64,000 bases of DNA from a virus (Duplodnaviria; Heunggongvirae; Uroviricota; Caudoviricetes), in IMG/VR virus record IMGVR_UViG_2654587728_000014, positions 1-64,000 of that record. One strand, 5' to 3'. A program made the position numbers and the translations under genes. A model generated the notes under the pieces. The model searched no databases, was not told the origin of the DNA, and saw nothing but the letters and a program-made list of their open reading frames with translations. The first letter of the stretch is position 1; the number at the start of each line of letters is the position of its first letter. Shown piece after piece: positions 18,898 to 23,515 of the stretch.

Positions 18898-19212
18898 TTA
18901 CAAACGACTACCTGAAATGACACGTTGGTTAATTTCGTTAATACGATCCTGTGCACGTGCCATCTCGTTACTGTGGGCCATGGCGATCTGCAGTAACTGG
19001 ATGCCCGGTGCAAAACGTCCGTTCTCCAGTTTCAGAGCCAGCCCTTCTTCAATGAGGGTGTTGAGTGCCCGGTTGATGTTTGCCGGTGACTCGTGCAGTG
19101 CTGTCGCCAGTTCACCGTTAGAAATACCGTTCAGGGCATGACCGCGCAGCGCTTTGAGTACCCGGAGGATGCGACTGCCGGAGCTTGAAACATTCGTCTT
19201 ACTCATCTGCAT
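18898..19212 (-). CDS. HTH DNA-binding protein
   Basis: 104 aa with winged-helix-like segment ISNGELATALHESPANINRALNTLIEEGLA. Confidence 0.5.
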   Translation of the reverse strand: MQMSKTNVSSSGSRILRVLKALRGHALNGISNGELATALHESPANINRALNTLIEEGLALKLENGRFAPGIQLLQIAMAHSNEMARAQDRINEINQRVISGSRL

Positions 19213-19258
19213 ACCTCTTTTGCGATATGTGATAACCTTTTACAAAGACTCAAAATAT

Positions 19259-19447
19259 TTAGGCCGCCTGAGCTGTTGATTTCAGTCCCAACTTCACGGC
19301 GATTTCATGGGATTTACCGTAACGGGCTTTGGTCTGCCCGTTGAGAACGCGGTATACCTCATTGCGGTTGTAGCCGTTTTCTTCTGCCCAGCGGGTGAAA
19401 GTGATCCCGCGCTGGCGGAAGAGAGCTTTGACTTGTTCTGCAGTCAT
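19259..19447 (-). CDS. ner: Ner-like DNA-binding regulator
   Basis: 62 aa; pattern FRQRGITFTRWAEENGYN...GKSHEIAVKLGL parallels the Ner/Nlp family; divergent from repressor gene. Confidence 0.65.
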   Translation of the reverse strand: MTAEQVKALFRQRGITFTRWAEENGYNRNEVYRVLNGQTKARYGKSHEIAVKLGLKSTAQAA

Positions 19448-19499
19448 CGTTGTCTCCTTTGTTGATGCAATGATGTTTGCCTTATATGTGTTAGATTAT

Positions 19500-19547
19500 T
19501 GCTCATAATTATGAGCATATCAAGATAGAGATTCACTTTTATGAGCA
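19500..19547. promoter_or_regulatory. operator region: perfect palindrome TGCTCATAATTATGAGCA plus extra TTATGAGCA half-site over the repressor start codon
   Basis: seen directly in the ner/repressor divergent intergenic region. Confidence 0.5.
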
Positions 19548-19897
19548 AAGATATAGGAGAGCGCGTTATTTCTGTGAGGAAGAAAGCAGGGTTGAACCAG
19601 AGAGAATTTGCAGCTCGTTTAGGTATTTCTAATGGTGGTATCAGTCAGATTGAAAATGGAAAGGCGATGCCTGGAGGGGAGTTTCTGTTAAAGATGCATC
19701 AAGAGTTTAATGTTGATGTAAATTGGTTGCTCACTGGAATGAGCACAGATGGTATGACTAGAAACCAGAATCAAATTTCCCCAGAAAAACAAAAACTAAT
19801 AGATACTTTTGACGACATGACACCAGACCAACAACGCTCATTTCTTGAGATTGGGCGATTCTATACTCAGCCAAAACCAGGAAAAATCGCAGGCTGA
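19541..19897 (+). CDS. XRE-family HTH repressor (Mu c-like)
   Basis: 118 aa; HTH QREFAARLGISNGGISQIENGK; divergent from ner-transposase operon. Confidence 0.8.
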   Translation: MSKDIGERVISVRKKAGLNQREFAARLGISNGGISQIENGKAMPGGEFLLKMHQEFNVDVNWLLTGMSTDGMTRNQNQISPEKQKLIDTFDDMTPDQQRSFLEIGRFYTQPKPGKIAG

Positions 19898-19983
19898 TAC
19901 TGACCCGGACACAAAGGACAGGTGGTTGATCTGGATGCTTTCAGAAAACATCGCCAGTGACATAGTGGAAGTTGTTTGGTTTA

Positions 19984-20014
19984 CCGGAAAGCATTGTGCT
20001 TTCCGGTTTTGTTT
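19984..20014 (+). terminator. rho-independent terminator after repressor gene
   Basis: hairpin CCGGAAAGCA-TTGT-GCTTTCCGG followed by TTTTGTTT. Confidence 0.6.
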
Positions 20015-20778
20015 CAGAAGTTGCAGATTAGCAGTTCACGGCGCGGCGTGGGTTTACCCGCCAGACTGTAGTTGATATTCACTGTCTGTATGTTCAGTCC
20101 AGTGAACACCTCGCGCATCTGCGGGATGTCGTTCACCGAAATTATCATTTTTCCTCTGATGCACCGGGCCAGCTCTGCCAGCCGCGAGTAGTTCCCTTCA
20201 GGAAAATCCACACCATAGCCTTCCGTACCCAGGTACGGTGGGTCGCAGTAGAACAGCGTGTGCGGACGATCATAACGCTCAATGCACTGTTGCCAGTCCA
20301 TGTGTTCTATGACTGTTCTGGAAAGCCGCAGGTGTGCCGCTGACAGTTCTTCTTCAATACGTAGCAGGTTGAAGCGTGGCGGGGATGTGGTGGAGGTACC
20401 GAAGCTGTGCTCTGCCACCTTGCCGCCAAACGCCTGCTTCTGAAGGTAGTAGAACCGTGCCGCACGCTGGATATCCGTCAGTGTTTCTTCCGGGGTGATC
20501 TGCAGCCATTTGTAGATCTGACGGCTGACCAGCGCCCATTTGAACTGGCGGACAAATTCTTCCAGGTGATGCTTTACCACCCGGTACAGATTCACCAGTT
20601 CACCGTTGATATCATTGATGACTTCGATCTTGCCGGGTGTCTTAAGAAAATAGAGCGCTGCTGCCCCACAAAACGGCTCCACATAACATTCATGCGCCGG
20701 AAACAGCGGCAGAATGTGTTTTGCAAGGCGGCGTTTGCCACCAATCCACGGCACGATGGGTAATGTCTGCATTTTCAT
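20014..20778 (-). CDS. dam: DNA adenine methyltransferase (Dam-like, orphan)
   Basis: about 254 aa; IVPWIGGKRRLAKHILPLFP... and DPPY motif (FYCDPPYLGTEGYG). Confidence 0.85.
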   Translation of the reverse strand: MKMQTLPIVPWIGGKRRLAKHILPLFPAHECYVEPFCGAAALYFLKTPGKIEVINDINGELVNLYRVVKHHLEEFVRQFKWALVSRQIYKWLQITPEETLTDIQRAARFYYLQKQAFGGKVAEHSFGTSTTSPPRFNLLRIEEELSAAHLRLSRTVIEHMDWQQCIERYDRPHTLFYCDPPYLGTEGYGVDFPEGNYSRLAELARCIRGKMIISVNDIPQMREVFTGLNIQTVNINYSLAGKPTPRRELLICNF

Positions 20779-20968
20779 AATCTGCAAGCCTTTTACAATT
20801 ATTAAAAAATATGGCAGTCTGGTCAGGTCTCGCGAGACTGACTGAACCTTGGTCGGCTCACAGCGCATTCCTGTGGGGCGATGACCAGCCCGGCTTTCGG
20901 GTGCCGGGCTGGTCGTTCTTTCATGATGCGGCAGGGATGGCGGGATTTCTGTTAATGTGGTTTAGGGA

Positions 20969-21184
20969 TTATCCGGGGCGATTTTCTGACCTTATCCGGT
21001 CCAGGGCATAAGTAATACCTTCTGCAAAAACAGAAGTATCAAACTGCTTTTGTATTCCCTGAAAATGAAAAGCGGCACGACAGACACTCAGTTCTCCGCG
21101 GTATAACCGGATAATATCTTCCAGAACATTGTTCACTGCTTCAGCACGGCGCTGATGTTCTGTTAACGTTAATCGGGGATTCAT
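20969..21184 (-). CDS. hypothetical protein
   Basis: 71 aa with strong AAGGAG RBS 6 nt upstream of ATG. Confidence 0.45.
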   Translation of the reverse strand: MNPRLTLTEHQRRAEAVNNVLEDIIRLYRGELSVCRAAFHFQGIQKQFDTSVFAEGITYALDRIRSENRPG

Positions 21185-21587
21185 GATGCACTCCTTAAAT
21201 GATGATTTTTATGTACTCACCGGCAAAATATTCTGCCGATTACTGAACACGCATCCGGCACCTCAGGTTTTGATTTATTCTGGTTTTTTCGATATCCCGG
21301 ACCAGGTTGATCACGACCAGAAAAAGTGCCGGTGTTTTATTGATACGCTGATATGGCTTCGGGATAACAGCTATATTCGTTACTCTCAGTTGCTGGCTGT
21401 GGGAGCGGCTGATGTCGTCCTCACGGAAAAAACGCTCTGTCTGCTCAATGCCATGCCGACCTTTCTGCAGCCCCGGCCCGTACCATTTAAAGAGTCACTT
21501 CTGGATGCAGTAAAAACCGGTGAAAATGCAGTCATCGCTGAATGCGTATCCCGGATTATGCGTTACGTGTTTAATGAACGTAAGTGA
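21183..21587 (+). CDS. hypothetical protein
   Basis: 134 aa; start codon overlaps the divergent 71-aa ORF start; weak GGGGA RBS. Confidence 0.35.
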   Translation: MMHSLNDDFYVLTGKIFCRLLNTHPAPQVLIYSGFFDIPDQVDHDQKKCRCFIDTLIWLRDNSYIRYSQLLAVGAADVVLTEKTLCLLNAMPTFLQPRPVPFKESLLDAVKTGENAVIAECVSRIMRYVFNERK

Positions 21588-22291
21588 GGTTTATCCGCTG
21601 TCTGCATAATCCCGATAGCCAGTGCGAGGGGAAGTAATTCCGGGGAAACTCTTTCAAACAGCGATGCCCATTCTCCTCTCGCCATCACTCTGTCCAGCCC
21701 GCCCTCCAGTTGCATTTCAGCAATCTTCCTGATTTCCCGGAACAACGCCGCTTTGATCTCTTCATGCTCAGCTTTATTTTCCGGTGTCAGAAGGTATTCG
21801 TCGAAGAACCGGGGAGGCTGGTTAATCGGGATGTGTTCCTGTTTGCCGTACTTCGGGGACGAACAACATTCTGTTGACTGACCAGTGAGTTTACGTAACT
21901 CCTTCATGAGCAGCTCCTGATCGTAAACTGTCATCAGTGCCGCAATGGTGGCATGCAGTGCATCGGGCAGTATCCAGGGTTGCCGGCCCGTGGGGCATAT
22001 AACATCCAGCAGCTCATTCGTCCGACAGATACGCTCCTCGCCGTATGACAACAGGCCCTGTCCCGTGTATTCCTCCAGCCTGATCACTGTGCCAGCCCGT
22101 GGTTTCTGCCATGTGCTCAGATCATCCCCACTCATACGGCGCTCACCGTCCACGTCTGCGGCGTCGACAATGACGCTGTTTCCGAATTCCTGTTTCACCA
22201 CTTCCTCTATTCGCGCCAGTACGTAACTTTTACCGCTGCCCACAGGACCGGACACGGTGACAGTGATGACCGGATTCAGTGTCTGCGTCAT
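21563..22291 (-). CDS. P-loop NTPase of unknown function
   Basis: 242 aa; N-terminal Walker A VSGPVGSGKSYVL; no recognisable second domain. Confidence 0.55.
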   Translation of the reverse strand: MTQTLNPVITVTVSGPVGSGKSYVLARIEEVVKQEFGNSVIVDAADVDGERRMSGDDLSTWQKPRAGTVIRLEEYTGQGLLSYGEERICRTNELLDVICPTGRQPWILPDALHATIAALMTVYDQELLMKELRKLTGQSTECCSSPKYGKQEHIPINQPPRFFDEYLLTPENKAEHEEIKAALFREIRKIAEMQLEGGLDRVMARGEWASLFERVSPELLPLALAIGIMQTADKPHLRSLNT

Positions 22292-22421
22292 ATCGTATTC
22301 TCCTCTGTGAATAATTCATCGTTTATCCTGCACATCCCGTATCCCCGGCTCTCTTAACGCGCTTTAAAATCCTTCGCGCCCTGTATTTGTGATGCTGTCT
22401 CCACCAGATAAGGAGACACAC

Positions 22422-22772
22422 ATGAAAAAACTGAAAAAATTCATTCCCCCTGTTAAAAAACCTCGCCTCAGCGGCTGGCTGCTGACCTCAGTGCTGTTGC
22501 TGGGCACCATCGCTCTGGTCTCACCACAGCAGCTGCCTGTTGTGATCTACAAGCTGGCACTCATCACGCTGGCAGCAGTGCTGGGTTACTGGCTTGACCG
22601 TTCGCTCTTCCCCAAAGCCCGTCCCGGTCAGTACCTGAAACATGACGACAGGCTGATGGCTGAAGGGCGTTTCCCGGTACAGACCGGCCTTCACCTGGTG
22701 TTTTCTGCTGCGTTAATCCGCCGTGCACTGATTGTTGCAGCGGTCTGCCTGGCTGTTGCGATGGGGCTTTAA
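22422..22772 (+). CDS. membrane protein at head of lysis cassette (possible holin)
   Basis: 116 aa from MKKLKKF after AAGGAG RBS; two hydrophobic segments. Confidence 0.45.
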   Translation: MKKLKKFIPPVKKPRLSGWLLTSVLLLGTIALVSPQQLPVVIYKLALITLAAVLGYWLDRSLFPKARPGQYLKHDDRLMAEGRFPVQTGLHLVFSAALIRRALIVAAVCLAVAMGL

Positions 22773-22774
22773 TC

Positions 22775-23515
22775 ATGAACTGGCCGCAGATCACCTGGAT
22801 TGTATGCATGTCCCTGAAACTGGCTTTCGAAGCCTTTCGGGTCTTCATCAGAACCGAACGCCTGTCAGTCCGCGCCGGGACCTTTCTGGTTCATATGGCA
22901 TGGGTATTCTTTGTCGCAATGTTGCTCTGGTGTGGCGGCTTTTTCAGCCAGGCATGCGCAGCACAACCTCCGCAGGCTGCGCTGCAGTATCGCGATGATG
23001 TGATCCGTAATGCCCGGCTTGAATGGGGACTGTCTGCGCCGGTGGCCGATTTCGCCGCGCAACTGCATCAGGAAAGCGGCTGGCGACCTGATGCGATCTC
23101 GCCGGCTGGCGCTCAGGGACTGGCGCAGTTCATGCCTGCCACTGCCGACTGGATAAGCCAGTTGATACCGATGCTGAGCAGTCGTGAGCCGTTTAATCCG
23201 GCATGGGCTATCCGGGCGCTGGTCAGCTATGACCGCTGGCTGTGGCAGCGTGTCAGCGCCGCCAGTGACTGCGAGCGTATGGCCATGACACTGTCGGGCT
23301 ATAACGGTGGTCTGGGCTGGGTACAACGGGACAGGCGGCTTGCATCACAGAAAGGTCTGGACAGCACCCGCTGGTTCGGACATGTCGCCACGGTGAATGC
23401 CGGACGCAATGCGGCCAGCTGGCGGGAGAACCGCCATTATCCGCAGCGCATCCTGCGCGAACTGGCACCGCGATATCTCACATGGGGAGGCAGCAGTTGT
23501 GTGGCATCTGGTTAA
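22775..23515 (+). CDS. lytic transglycosylase endolysin with N-terminal signal-anchor
   Basis: 246 aa; SLT motif ESGWRP...GAQGLAQFMP; hydrophobic N-terminus. Confidence 0.8.
   Translation: MNWPQITWIVCMSLKLAFEAFRVFIRTERLSVRAGTFLVHMAWVFFVAMLLWCGGFFSQACAAQPPQAALQYRDDVIRNARLEWGLSAPVADFAAQLHQESGWRPDAISPAGAQGLAQFMPATADWISQLIPMLSSREPFNPAWAIRALVSYDRWLWQRVSAASDCERMAMTLSGYNGGLGWVQRDRRLASQKGLDSTRWFGHVATVNAGRNAASWRENRHYPQRILRELAPRYLTWGGSSCVASG

What the first reader, a model, noticed from the sequence alone, without database searches (positions are those of the whole stretch)
21180..21190. Divergent ORFs with overlapping start codons
The minus-strand 71-aa ORF starts at ATG 21182-21184 and the plus-strand 134-aa ORF at ATG 21183-21185, so each start lies within the other's RBS footprint. 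The minus ORF has the better RBS (AAGGAG, 6-nt spacer). Either one ORF is spurious or initiation is mutually exclusive.
Basis: seen in the sequence. Interest (0 to 1): 0.3.

Follow-up and report, generated by a model that had tools for sequence, protein, structure and literature searches.

The report
Two real phage genes sharing CATG
Two back-to-back genes on opposite strands of a Mu-like E. coli prophage really do share the four bases CATG as their start codons; both are genuine conserved genes of an uncharacterised two-gene phage accessory module, and the same odd layout recurs in distantly related phages.

Summary
Window 21182-21185 is CATG: the minus-strand 71-aa ORF starts at 21184-21182 and the plus-strand 134-aa ORF at 21183 (a second ATG is at 21186). 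AAGGAG lies 6 nt upstream of the minus start.

Neither ORF is spurious. Both are under purifying selection, and the pair persists in relatives of the large protein at 53% and about 30% identity. The geometry is kept in Serratia- and Salmonella-type Bcepmu-like prophages, in 45 of 45 P2-like loci, and in one further phage lineage (2-nt gap). In each, a gene's Shine-Dalgarno sits in its partner's first codons.

The large protein is an acidic winged-helix protein from a large unannotated family. The small one is a fast-evolving three-helix bundle. The module sits in accessory slots: between repressor and holin in Bcepmuviruses, and at the cos edge of the P2 defence hotspot.

The "mutually exclusive initiation" argument fails as stated, because the two starts are on different mRNAs. 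The layout does force the two mRNAs to be antisense at their 5' ends, so antagonism through transcription or RNA pairing is plausible but unproven. Function is unknown. Interest is modest: a rare, conserved architecture, already annotated in RefSeq.

The parts
20969..21184 (-). Small partner gene, 71 aa (RefSeq WP_001069611; phrog_4490). Predicted three-helix bundle.
   Evidence: ORF. PHROG full-length hit, E 7e-53. Annotated in RefSeq. Homologues in Serratia- and Salmonella-type elements. Coding-type substitution pattern. AF2 pLDDT 91, helices 3-28, 34-47 and 50-68.
21183..21587 (+). Large gene, 134 aa (133 aa if started at ATG 21186; RefSeq WP_000972294; phrog_2266). Acidic winged-helix-fold protein of a large unannotated family.
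   Evidence: dN/dS 0.18 against the Serratia homologue. 195 family clusters with E<1e-3. No Pfam, NCBIfam or PADLOC hit. AF2 pLDDT 92. Only weak fold hits, all to winged-helix domains. Family median pI 5.1.
21182..21188 (.). Junction CATGATG: minus ATG (21184-21182), plus ATG-1 (21183-21185), plus ATG-2 (21186-21188).
   Evidence: Identical CATGATG in the Serratia type and in all ten contigs L008-L017 (nine E. coli-type plus the Serratia-type L017). CATG in the Salmonella type and in 45/45 P2-type loci.
21191..21196 (-). Shine-Dalgarno AAGGAG of the small gene, embedded in codons 3-5 of the large gene; 6-nt spacer.
   Evidence: Equivalent GGAG/GAGG/AGGAG at the same place in the Serratia, P2-type, Salmonella and L089 lineages.
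21175..21179 (+). Weak SD-like GGGGA for the large gene, embedded in codons 2-4 of the small gene; 6 nt from ATG 21186, 3 nt from ATG 21183.
   Evidence: A GGGRA/GGAG-type purine run at the equivalent place in the other lineages.
21221..21238 (.). 18-bp near-palindrome CGGCAAAATATTCTGCCG inside the large gene (codons for GKIFCR), 37-54 nt upstream of the small gene's start. Candidate operator or promoter element; weak evidence.
   Evidence: Nearly the same sequence in the Serratia type, but it encodes a conserved peptide, so conservation of the DNA is not diagnostic.
21563..22291 (-). Neighbouring 242-aa P-loop gene (phrog_3787). Its 3' end overlaps the 3' end of the large gene by 25 nt, so the plus-strand gene has no non-coding flank at either end.
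   Evidence: Homologue in the Salmonella type (258 aa); only the C-terminal part in the Serratia type (89 aa).
20014..20778 (-). DNA adenine methylase, downstream of the small gene on the same strand. Context gene of the accessory slot.
   Evidence: Pfam MethyltransfD12, E 9e-29. RefSeq start at 20778.

Best explanation
Both ORFs are genuine genes. They form a conserved head-to-head two-gene accessory module of temperate phages: a fast-evolving ~65-73-aa three-helix protein and a ~135-145-aa acidic winged-helix protein.

Their start codons abut or overlap (CATG), and each gene's ribosome-binding site is written into the first 2-5 codons of its partner. Translation of the two is not in direct conflict, because they are read from two different mRNAs made from opposite strands.

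Because there is no intergenic DNA, each gene must be transcribed from a promoter lying inside or beyond its partner. The two transcripts are then necessarily complementary over both ribosome-binding sites and start codons, and RNA polymerases for the two genes converge.

The most likely consequence is that expression of the two genes is reciprocally antagonistic, through transcriptional interference and/or pairing of the 5' leaders. The module would then behave as a compact two-state unit, with one gene or the other favoured.

Shown: both genes are coding and conserved; the geometry and the embedded SDs are conserved across lineages; the module lives in accessory or defence slots.

Inferred: where the promoters are, that the mRNAs interfere, and what the proteins do. 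My guess is that the small protein is a binding partner or modulator of the winged-helix protein, and that the pair regulates or constitutes a lysogen-expressed accessory function.
For: Both frames coding:
- Window versus Serratia type: 134-aa ORF dN/dS 0.18 with positions 2>1>3; 71-aa ORF position identity 0.45/0.54/0.28.
- 37 distinct P2-type modules: dN/dS 0.15 (small) and 0.07 (large), third-position variation dominant.
- Full-length PHROG hits for both. RefSeq annotates both.

Geometry conserved:
- CATGATG in the Serratia type, where the large protein is 53% identical.
- CATG in the Salmonella Bcepmu-like prophage L087, about 30% identity.
- CATG plus an intact 63-64-aa partner in 45/45 P2-like loci.
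- CATaaATG in L089/L090.
- SD motifs embedded in the partner's first codons in all five lineages.
- Divergent overlaps are otherwise very rare (PMC4161906).

Embedded cis-element:
- In P2-type modules, synonymous variation collapses to 0.05-0.14 over codons 39-50 of the large gene, against a mean of 0.34 (permutation p = 0.004). It is also low over codons 1-16.
- The strong dip overlaps the -35 hexamer (and the ~20 nt upstream of it) of a minus-strand promoter-like TAGTCA-16-TAAATT site whose -10 end lies about 96 nt upstream of the small gene's ATG. The two hexamer regions (read one base out of register) are unchanged in 33/37 and 30/37 modules.

No flanking non-coding DNA: the large gene also overlaps its downstream neighbour convergently.

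Accessory context:
- The repressor-to-holin slot differs in BcepMu and KP12.
- The P2-type module lies in the gpA-gpQ hotspot (PMC9122126), next to a type VI retron, PDC-M48, Fic, a GmrSD-like enzyme and others.
Against: - No transcript data. No sigma-70-like promoter scores above threshold within 260 nt of the junction on either strand in the window itself, so the promoters there are unlocated.
- The plus-strand promoter candidate in P2-type modules is not conserved.
- Low synonymous variation at codons 1-16 is also expected from ordinary selection on gene 5' ends.
- The candidate hairpin at the P2-type junction is not supported by covariation.
- Seven of 12 sampled family lineages do not have the head-to-head layout, so the protein family does not need it.
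- The winged-helix protein is acidic with an uncharged recognition helix and wing, so a classical repressor role is doubtful.
- Homology of the small partners across lineages is only suggestive.
Confidence: 0.6

Rival explanations
1. One of the two ORFs is a spurious open frame. Only one gene is real, and the overlap is an annotation artefact.
For: The GenBank record of the identical phage PhiKM annotates only the 71-aa ORF and omits the 134-aa ORF. The plus ORF has a weak SD. The large gene is interrupted in two related contigs, L007 and L016.
Against: Both frames show purifying selection in two independent module types. The large protein belongs to a family of 195 or more clusters, matched over full length, and folds with pLDDT 92. 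The small ORF is intact in 45/45 P2-type loci and folds with pLDDT 91. Both have full-length PHROG families.
Confidence: 0.03
2. The layout is genome compaction with no regulatory meaning. Both genes are transcribed from distant promoters, both mRNAs coexist, and the shared CATG is a frozen accident inherited with the module.
For: Phage genomes are compact. The large gene also overlaps its 3' neighbour. The head-to-head lineages could all descend from one ancestor, so conservation may reflect inheritance plus the difficulty of separating interdigitated signals. Other family members work with ordinary spacers or in operons. No promoters were found near the junction in the window.
Against: The geometry has survived divergence of the large protein to about 30% identity, and of the small partner beyond recognition, in three different phage backbones. 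A single small insertion would have relaxed it. Fully complementary leaders covering both SDs are hard to keep functionally neutral. There is an embedded conserved element in the P2-type large gene.
Confidence: 0.25
3. Temporal separation. The minus-strand genes (P-loop gene, 71-aa gene, dam) form one operon that reads straight through the antisense of the large gene. The large gene is a separately expressed (for example lysogen-expressed) gene embedded antisense in that operon, so the two starts are simply used at different stages of the phage life cycle.
For: The large gene is flanked on both sides by minus-strand genes with no non-coding DNA and no predicted minus-strand terminator between 21200 and 21600. 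The arrangement is the same in the Serratia, Salmonella and L089 lineages. In phage Midge a LexA-box operon (hyp and DinI-like) points through the large gene toward the small gene. A promoter-like site for dam and a plus-strand promoter-like site lie in the 20772-20826 region.
Against: In Salmonella phage FSL SP-004 the gene to the right of the large gene is on the plus strand (Fic), so read-through from that side cannot be general. In P2-type modules a conserved promoter-like site for the small gene lies inside the large gene. There are no expression data.
Confidence: 0.12

Closest known systems
Face-to-face promoter switches of P2-family phages (P2 C/Cox with Pc/Pe; 186 CI/Apl with pL/pR). 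Basis: established knowledge of these systems, not tested here.
   Same: Two small divergent phage genes lie so close that their transcripts must overlap at the 5' ends. Convergent transcription produces interference between the two directions. The setting is a temperate phage.
   Different: In P2 and 186 the genes are separated by a short intergenic region holding both promoters and the operators, both products are DNA-binding regulators, and the pair is the lysis-lysogeny switch. Here there is no intergenic DNA at all and the start codons share bases. The large protein is acidic with no recognisable DNA-binding family, and the small one has no HTH. The prophage has its own separate repressor/Ner-like immunity region at 19259-19897.
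scbA/scbR of Streptomyces coelicolor and prgQ/prgX of pCF10: divergent genes with 5'-overlapping transcripts acting as bistable switches (scbA/scbR: PMC3134472, seen; prgQ/prgX from my own knowledge).
   Same: Divergent genes whose promoters lie within each other's transcribed regions. Antisense 5' overlap and polymerase collision are proposed or shown to give mutually antagonistic expression.
   Different: Those overlaps involve untranslated leaders, not start codons and coding sequence. The proteins and biology (quorum signals, conjugation) are unrelated. Here the antagonism is only inferred.
Generic divergent (5'-5') overlapping gene pairs in prokaryote annotations
   Same: A two-base CATG overlap of opposite-strand start codons; the rarest class of gene overlap (2 of 663 overlapping pairs in E. 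coli K-12; PMC4161906).
   Different: Many annotated divergent overlaps are suspected start-site mis-calls (my own knowledge). Here the starts are supported by embedded SDs and by conservation across lineages at about 30% protein identity.
MarR/PadR-like winged-helix regulators and other small viral winged-helix proteins (SSV1 F-93, YjcQ, AspA)
   Same: Predicted helix / strand / long helix / beta-wing topology and the W-L-x3-G-Y-I ... L-T-x-K-G sequence pattern. These are the best, though weak, Foldseek and profile hits.
   Different: No hit is significant (best Foldseek E 0.056; no Pfam family). There is an extra C-terminal pair of helices. The family is acidic, with no basic recognition surface.

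Membership tests
Divergent overlapping gene pair (5'-5' overlap) | Both overlapping ORFs are real protein-coding genes | tested here: met
   Purifying selection on both frames in two module types. Family and PHROG hits. Confident folds.
Divergent overlapping gene pair (5'-5' overlap) | Start codons on opposite strands share bases, and the starts are correctly placed | tested here: met
   CATG at 21182-21185. SDs at proper spacing. The same junction in five lineages. Caveat: the plus gene may start at ATG 21186, giving a 1-nt gap instead of a 2-nt overlap.
Face-to-face promoter genetic switch (P2 C/Cox, 186 CI/Apl type) | Two convergent promoters whose transcripts overlap at the 5' ends | tested here: inconclusive
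   Required by the geometry, but promoters were not located in the window. There is a conserved promoter-like site for the small gene only in P2-type modules. No transcript data.
Face-to-face promoter genetic switch (P2 C/Cox, 186 CI/Apl type) | Both products are DNA-binding regulators acting on the shared control region | tested here: not met
   No HTH or regulator family hit for either protein. The small protein is a plain three-helix bundle with no fold match. The large protein is acidic.
Face-to-face promoter genetic switch (P2 C/Cox, 186 CI/Apl type) | The pair is the phage's lysis-lysogeny immunity region | tested here: not met
   A separate HTH repressor / Ner-like divergent pair lies at 19259-19897, next to the transposase operon. 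The module sits in an exchangeable accessory slot.
MarR/PadR-type winged-helix transcription factor | Significant match to a wHTH regulator family | tested here: not met
   Pfam scan of 60 family members: no wHTH family. PDB profile search: AspA and YjcQ at E about 0.2. Foldseek best E 0.056.
MarR/PadR-type winged-helix transcription factor | Winged-helix fold with a basic DNA-contacting helix and wing | tested here: inconclusive
   The fold is winged-helix-like, but the helix and wing have no net positive charge and the family's median pI is 5.1.
Type II toxin-antitoxin pair | Co-directional bicistronic operon with a recognisable toxin or antitoxin domain | tested here: not met
   The genes are divergent. 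No TA domain was found in Pfam, NCBIfam or PADLOC.
Known or candidate anti-phage defence system (PADLOC-DB v2) | A protein matches a defence-system model | tested here: not met
   No PADLOC hit for either protein or for their Serratia homologues. Only the neighbours in P2-type loci are defence genes.
T7 gp5.5 / gp5.7-like proteins (suggested in the phage Midge annotation) | Profile-level similarity to T7 gp5.5 or gp5.7 | tested here: not met
   hhalign of the 76-sequence family profile against gp5.5: probability 0.1%; against gp5.7: 1.1%. The template was a single sequence, so sensitivity was limited.
Mor/C family late-gene activators of Mu-like phages | Match to the Mor/C family | tested here: not met
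   No Pfam hit at E <= 0.1-1. The module also occurs in P2-like phages, which use a different late activator (own knowledge).

The most novel reading that the evidence does not exclude
The shared-CATG pair is a self-contained, mobile two-state switch. Two proteins with no known relatives (an acidic winged-helix protein and a fast-evolving three-helix partner) are encoded so that their mRNAs mutually mask each other's ribosome-binding sites and their polymerases collide. This gives either/or expression that controls, or itself constitutes, a lysogen accessory function such as phage exclusion or the regulation of neighbouring defence cargo. It would be an undescribed class of phage hotspot module, and a natural example of a bistable element with zero intergenic DNA.
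Probability: 0.2. Interest if true: 0.6.

Novelty: new variant of a known kind. Interest (0 to 1): 0.36.

Why it matters
Divergent start-codon overlaps are usually dismissed as annotation errors. Here is a case where both genes are demonstrably real and the layout has been kept while the proteins diverged to about 30% identity, in three phage backbones.

This makes it a clean natural test-bed for how two genes with interdigitated ribosome-binding sites and obligatorily antisense leaders are expressed.

It also flags an uncharacterised, widespread gene pair. The window's version is in about 10% of complete E. coli genomes. The P2-type version has been seen on more than 1000 contigs. The pair sits beside known anti-phage cargo, so it is a reasonable candidate for functional screening.

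A practical point: public annotations disagree, since the PhiKM record omits the large gene, so gene callers and curators should not drop one member of such pairs.

Tried and rejected
1. Sigma-70 promoter scans. The tool's scan found nothing between the ORFs, and my PWM scan found nothing of 4 bits or more within 260 nt of the junction in the window. Promoters remain unlocated.

2. An RNA hairpin or inverted repeat at the P2-type junction (L020 531-540 / 565-574). Three of ten pairs are unpaired in most of the 37 modules and there is no covariation. Rejected.

3. Rfam over 19000-23000 at E <= 1: no hit.

4. LexA boxes at the junctions: none. The only one is upstream of the neighbouring DinI operon in Midge.

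5. T7 gp5.5/5.7 similarity, suggested by the Midge annotation: not reproduced.

6. The UniRef name "DUF2513" for the Serratia homologue: not reproduced in this Pfam scan; no family matched P0012 at E < 0.1.

7. Homology of the small partners across lineages. hhalign of Bcepmu-type against P2-type: probability below 1%. A possible bridge through the L095 partner: E 2.9e-4 to the Bcepmu-type and 0.066 to the P2-type. Suggestive only.

8. Fold searches for both models against PDB, and for the large one against BFVD: no significant match.

9. Genome-collection scans. The narrow alignment found nothing and the bridging alignment found only three P2-type loci. The full family alignment was too diverse to back-translate.

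10. The 18-bp near-palindrome at 21221-21238 as an operator. It is conserved in the Serratia type but encodes a conserved peptide, so the evidence is weak.

11. GC content as a sign of recent acquisition. The region is only mildly lower (0.44-0.50 against about 0.55), which is not decisive.

Full report
**1. The observation**

The window reads 21180-tt CATG ATG cactcctt.
- The minus-strand ORF 20969..21184 (71 aa) begins with the ATG complementary to 21182-21184.
- The plus-strand ORF 21183..21587 (134 aa, MMHSL...) begins at 21183, with a second in-frame ATG at 21186.
- The minus-strand Shine-Dalgarno AAGGAG is CTCCTT at 21191-21196, 6 nt from its ATG.
- The plus strand offers only GGGGA at 21175-21179. 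That is 3 nt from ATG 21183 and 6 nt from ATG 21186.

The one refinement is that the plus gene may well start at the second ATG. In that case the starts are back-to-back with a 1-nt gap rather than overlapping by 2 nt. Either way, each gene's SD lies within the first codons of the other. RefSeq (PGAP) already annotates both CDSs with the 2-bp overlap, as WP_001069611 and WP_000972294, both "hypothetical protein".

**2. Context**

The window carries a Bcepmuvirus-type (Mu-like, transposable) prophage of E. coli. Its layout is:
- a DDE transposase, an ExeA/MuB-like gene and a Ner-like gene on the minus strand;
- an HTH repressor on the plus strand;
- then dam (-), the 71-aa gene (-), the 134-aa gene (+) and a 242-aa P-loop gene (-);
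- then the plus-strand late operon, beginning with holin, SLT endolysin and spanins, followed by terminase and portal.

An identical sequence is deposited as Escherichia phage PhiKM, classified as Bcepmuvirus. That record annotates the 71-aa ORF but not the 134-aa ORF. The 901-bp region occurs in 534 of 5426 complete E. coli genomes.

**3. Are both ORFs real?**

Yes.
- Each has a full-length PHROG family.
- A Serratia-type relative encodes a 139-aa homologue (53% identity) and a 73-aa partner (25-31% identity) in the same arrangement.
- Between the two elements the large gene has dN/dS of about 0.18, with codon-position identities 0.63/0.75/0.43. The small gene has 0.45/0.54/0.28. Both show the 2>1>3 signature of coding sequence.
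- An exhaustive profile search places the large protein in a diverse family: 195 clusters at 50% identity with E<1e-3, nearly all full-length matches to proteins of 125-150 aa.
- In a second, distantly related module type (see section 4), 37 distinct versions give dN/dS of 0.146 for the small gene and 0.074 for the large one. Third-position variation is dominant, and both alternative frames of the small gene contain stops.

**4. The geometry is conserved far beyond this prophage**

tblastn found homologues of the large protein at about 31% identity in three P2-like Peduoviridae: Escherichia phage Midge, Klebsiella phage ST147-VIM1phi7.1 and Salmonella phage FSL SP-004. In all three records a small divergent 63-64-aa ORF is annotated with exactly a 2-bp start overlap.

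Across 45 further P2-type loci, 45 of 45 have CATG at the junction and an intact partner ORF.

A Salmonella Bcepmu-like prophage, with the large protein about 30% identical to the window's, has the same 2-bp overlap. An unrelated phage contig (L089/L090) has the two starts separated by 2 nt.

In all five lineages the SD of each gene is embedded in its partner's first codons. CTCC or CCTC lies in codons 3-5 of the large gene, and a GGGRA- or GGAG-type run lies in codons 2-4 of the small gene.

The layout is not universal in the family. Of the 12 lineages sampled:

| Arrangement | Lineages |
|---|---|
| Head-to-head, starts within 2 nt | 5 |
| Divergent upstream gene with an ordinary 89-256-nt spacer | 3 |
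| Co-directional with neighbours | 4 |

Divergent overlaps are the rarest overlap class: 2 of 663 overlapping pairs in E. coli K-12 (PMC4161906). Retention of this one through such divergence is therefore not a chance feature. Common descent of the head-to-head lineages, rather than repeated invention, is the simplest reading.

**5. What the proteins are**

Neither protein matches Pfam, NCBIfam or PADLOC, and all database names are "hypothetical".

The large protein:
- It models with pLDDT 92 as a helix, a strand, a long helix and a beta-wing, followed by three further helices, the last two forming a C-terminal pair.
- All structural neighbours are weak (best E 0.056) but consistently winged-helix domains: SSV1 F-93, MarR, CodY-C, YjcQ, ScpB and MukE.
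- A PDB profile search gives AspA and YjcQ at E of about 0.2. BFVD gives nothing significant.
- The family is acidic (median pI 5.1, 86% below 6), and the presumed recognition helix and wing carry no net positive charge. I therefore call it a winged-helix-fold protein, not a demonstrated DNA-binding regulator.
- The T7 gp5.5/5.7 similarity noted in the Midge record was not reproduced.

The 71-aa protein:
- It models (pLDDT 91) as a three-helix bundle with no informative fold match.

The small partners evolve faster than the large proteins; in the E. coli lineage they are 61-65/71 identical where the large protein is 132-133/134 identical. They are not demonstrably homologous between module types. 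The partner of a spacer-type lineage (L095) gives suggestive bridges, with hhalign E of 2.9e-4 to the Bcepmu-type and 0.066 to the P2-type.

**6. Where the module lives**

In Bcepmuviruses the module occupies the interval between the repressor/dam region and the holin. This interval holds different genes in BcepMu (gp18-20) and in a KP12 clone.

In P2-like phages it lies in the cos-proximal gpA-gpQ locus, which is a published defence hotspot (PMC9122126). The portal side is constant. The gpA side carries varying cargo: a type VI retron (RT_VI plus HTH_VI), PDC-M48A/B, a Fic/PDC-S04 protein, a GmrSD-like enzyme, a GNAT, or DinI directly.

The module is thus an accessory unit that keeps company with anti-phage genes. 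It is not itself in PADLOC.

**7. How it most likely works**

Ribosomes initiate on mRNA.

What the geometry does enforce is the following.
- (a) Each gene's promoter must lie inside or beyond its partner, because there is no intergenic DNA. In four lineages the large gene also overlaps its 3' neighbour.
- (b) The two leaders are therefore perfectly complementary across both SDs and both start codons.
- (c) Polymerases for the two genes converge.

By analogy with face-to-face promoter systems (P2 Pe/Pc and 186 pR/pL, from established knowledge; scbA/scbR, PMC3134472), I infer reciprocal antagonism by transcriptional interference and/or leader pairing.

Partial support comes from the P2-type set.
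- Synonymous variation in the large gene falls to 0.05-0.14 over codons 39-50, against a mean of 0.34 (permutation p = 0.004). It is also depressed over codons 1-16.
- The strong dip overlaps the -35 hexamer, and about 20 nt upstream of it, of a minus-strand promoter-like TAGTCA-16-TAAATT site. The -10 end of that site lies about 96 nt upstream of the small gene's ATG. The two hexamer regions, which I read one base out of register, are unchanged in 33/37 and 30/37 modules.

Against this, several points weaken the model.
- No promoter was found near the junction in the window.
- The plus-strand candidate in P2-type modules is not conserved.
- A junction hairpin failed the covariation test.
- There are no expression data.

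An alternative is that the P-loop gene, the 71-aa gene and dam form one leftward operon reading antisense through the large gene, with the two strands used at different life-cycle stages. FSL SP-004, where the right-hand neighbour is on the plus strand, shows that this cannot be general.

**8. Verdict**

- The "spurious ORF" reading is refuted.
- The "mutually exclusive initiation" reading is wrong in mechanism, but a related antagonism at the RNA or transcription level is plausible and untested.
- The thing itself is an uncharacterised, conserved, head-to-head two-gene accessory module of temperate phages, already annotated as hypothetical genes in RefSeq.
- I rate it a new variant of a known kind (5'-overlapping divergent gene pairs), of modest interest.

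Noticed in passing
window 20806-20924: A ~120-nt non-coding element between the dam start (20778) and the 71-aa gene's stop is 86% identical to sequence in a Klebsiella phage KP12 clone and in Escherichia phage Phi06_2974 B. In KP12 it again lies just upstream of dam, but is followed by a different gene. It contains a 12-nt palindrome (GTCTCGCGAGAC, about 20829-20840), a 12-bp-stem hairpin (20883-20914) with a T-rich tail on the plus strand, and promoter-like sites on both strands (20772-20799 plus; 20826-20798 minus). There is no Rfam match. It could be a dam leader or regulatory region, a small RNA, or the recombination boundary of the exchangeable slot.
   Followed up: partly
window 21563-21587: The 3' end of the plus-strand 134-aa gene overlaps the 3' end of the minus-strand 242-aa P-loop gene by 25 nt. 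Convergent overlaps of 37, 4 and 8 nt occur in the Serratia, Salmonella and L089 lineages. The plus-strand gene is therefore wedged between minus-strand genes with no non-coding DNA at either end.
   Followed up: partly
L019 (Escherichia phage PhiKM, PQ738613) versus window 19541-19897 and 21183-21587: The GenBank record of the identical phage omits both the HTH repressor ORF and the 134-aa ORF, both of which RefSeq annotates in E. coli chromosomes. It also calls dam from an upstream start (284 aa against 254 aa).
   Followed up: no
window 21563-22291: The 242-aa protein has an N-terminal P-loop (VSGPVGSGKS), with only weak AAA/KAP hits and weak PADLOC hits (Csx3-AAA, mad8, HerA). It is conserved in the Salmonella Bcepmu-like element (258 aa), but only its C-terminal ~90 aa are present in the Serratia type.
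   Followed up: no
L094 1058-1914: One metagenomic contig carries two tandem, co-directional paralogues of the winged-helix family next to an SSB gene.
   Followed up: no
L016 and L007 (E. coli-type relatives): The large gene is interrupted in two related contigs: a premature stop after codon 40 in L016 and a frameshift in L007. The small gene stays intact in both. This is either assembly error or occasional loss of the large gene.
   Followed up: no
L020 1466-1481 (phage Midge): A canonical LexA box (CTGTATATTTATACAG) lies upstream of the leftward hyp/DinI-like operon, which points at the 3' end of the winged-helix gene. SOS-driven read-through into the module is conceivable. A hairpin with a plus-strand T-tail lies between them.
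   Followed up: partly
L026-L070 (P2-type loci), gpA side of the module: The neighbours of the P2-type module are a catalogue of defence cargo: a type VI retron (RT_VI plus HTH_VI), PDC-M48A/B, Fic/PDC-S04, a GmrSD-like Orf5/HEC-06 enzyme and a GNAT. The portal side is constant.
   Followed up: partly
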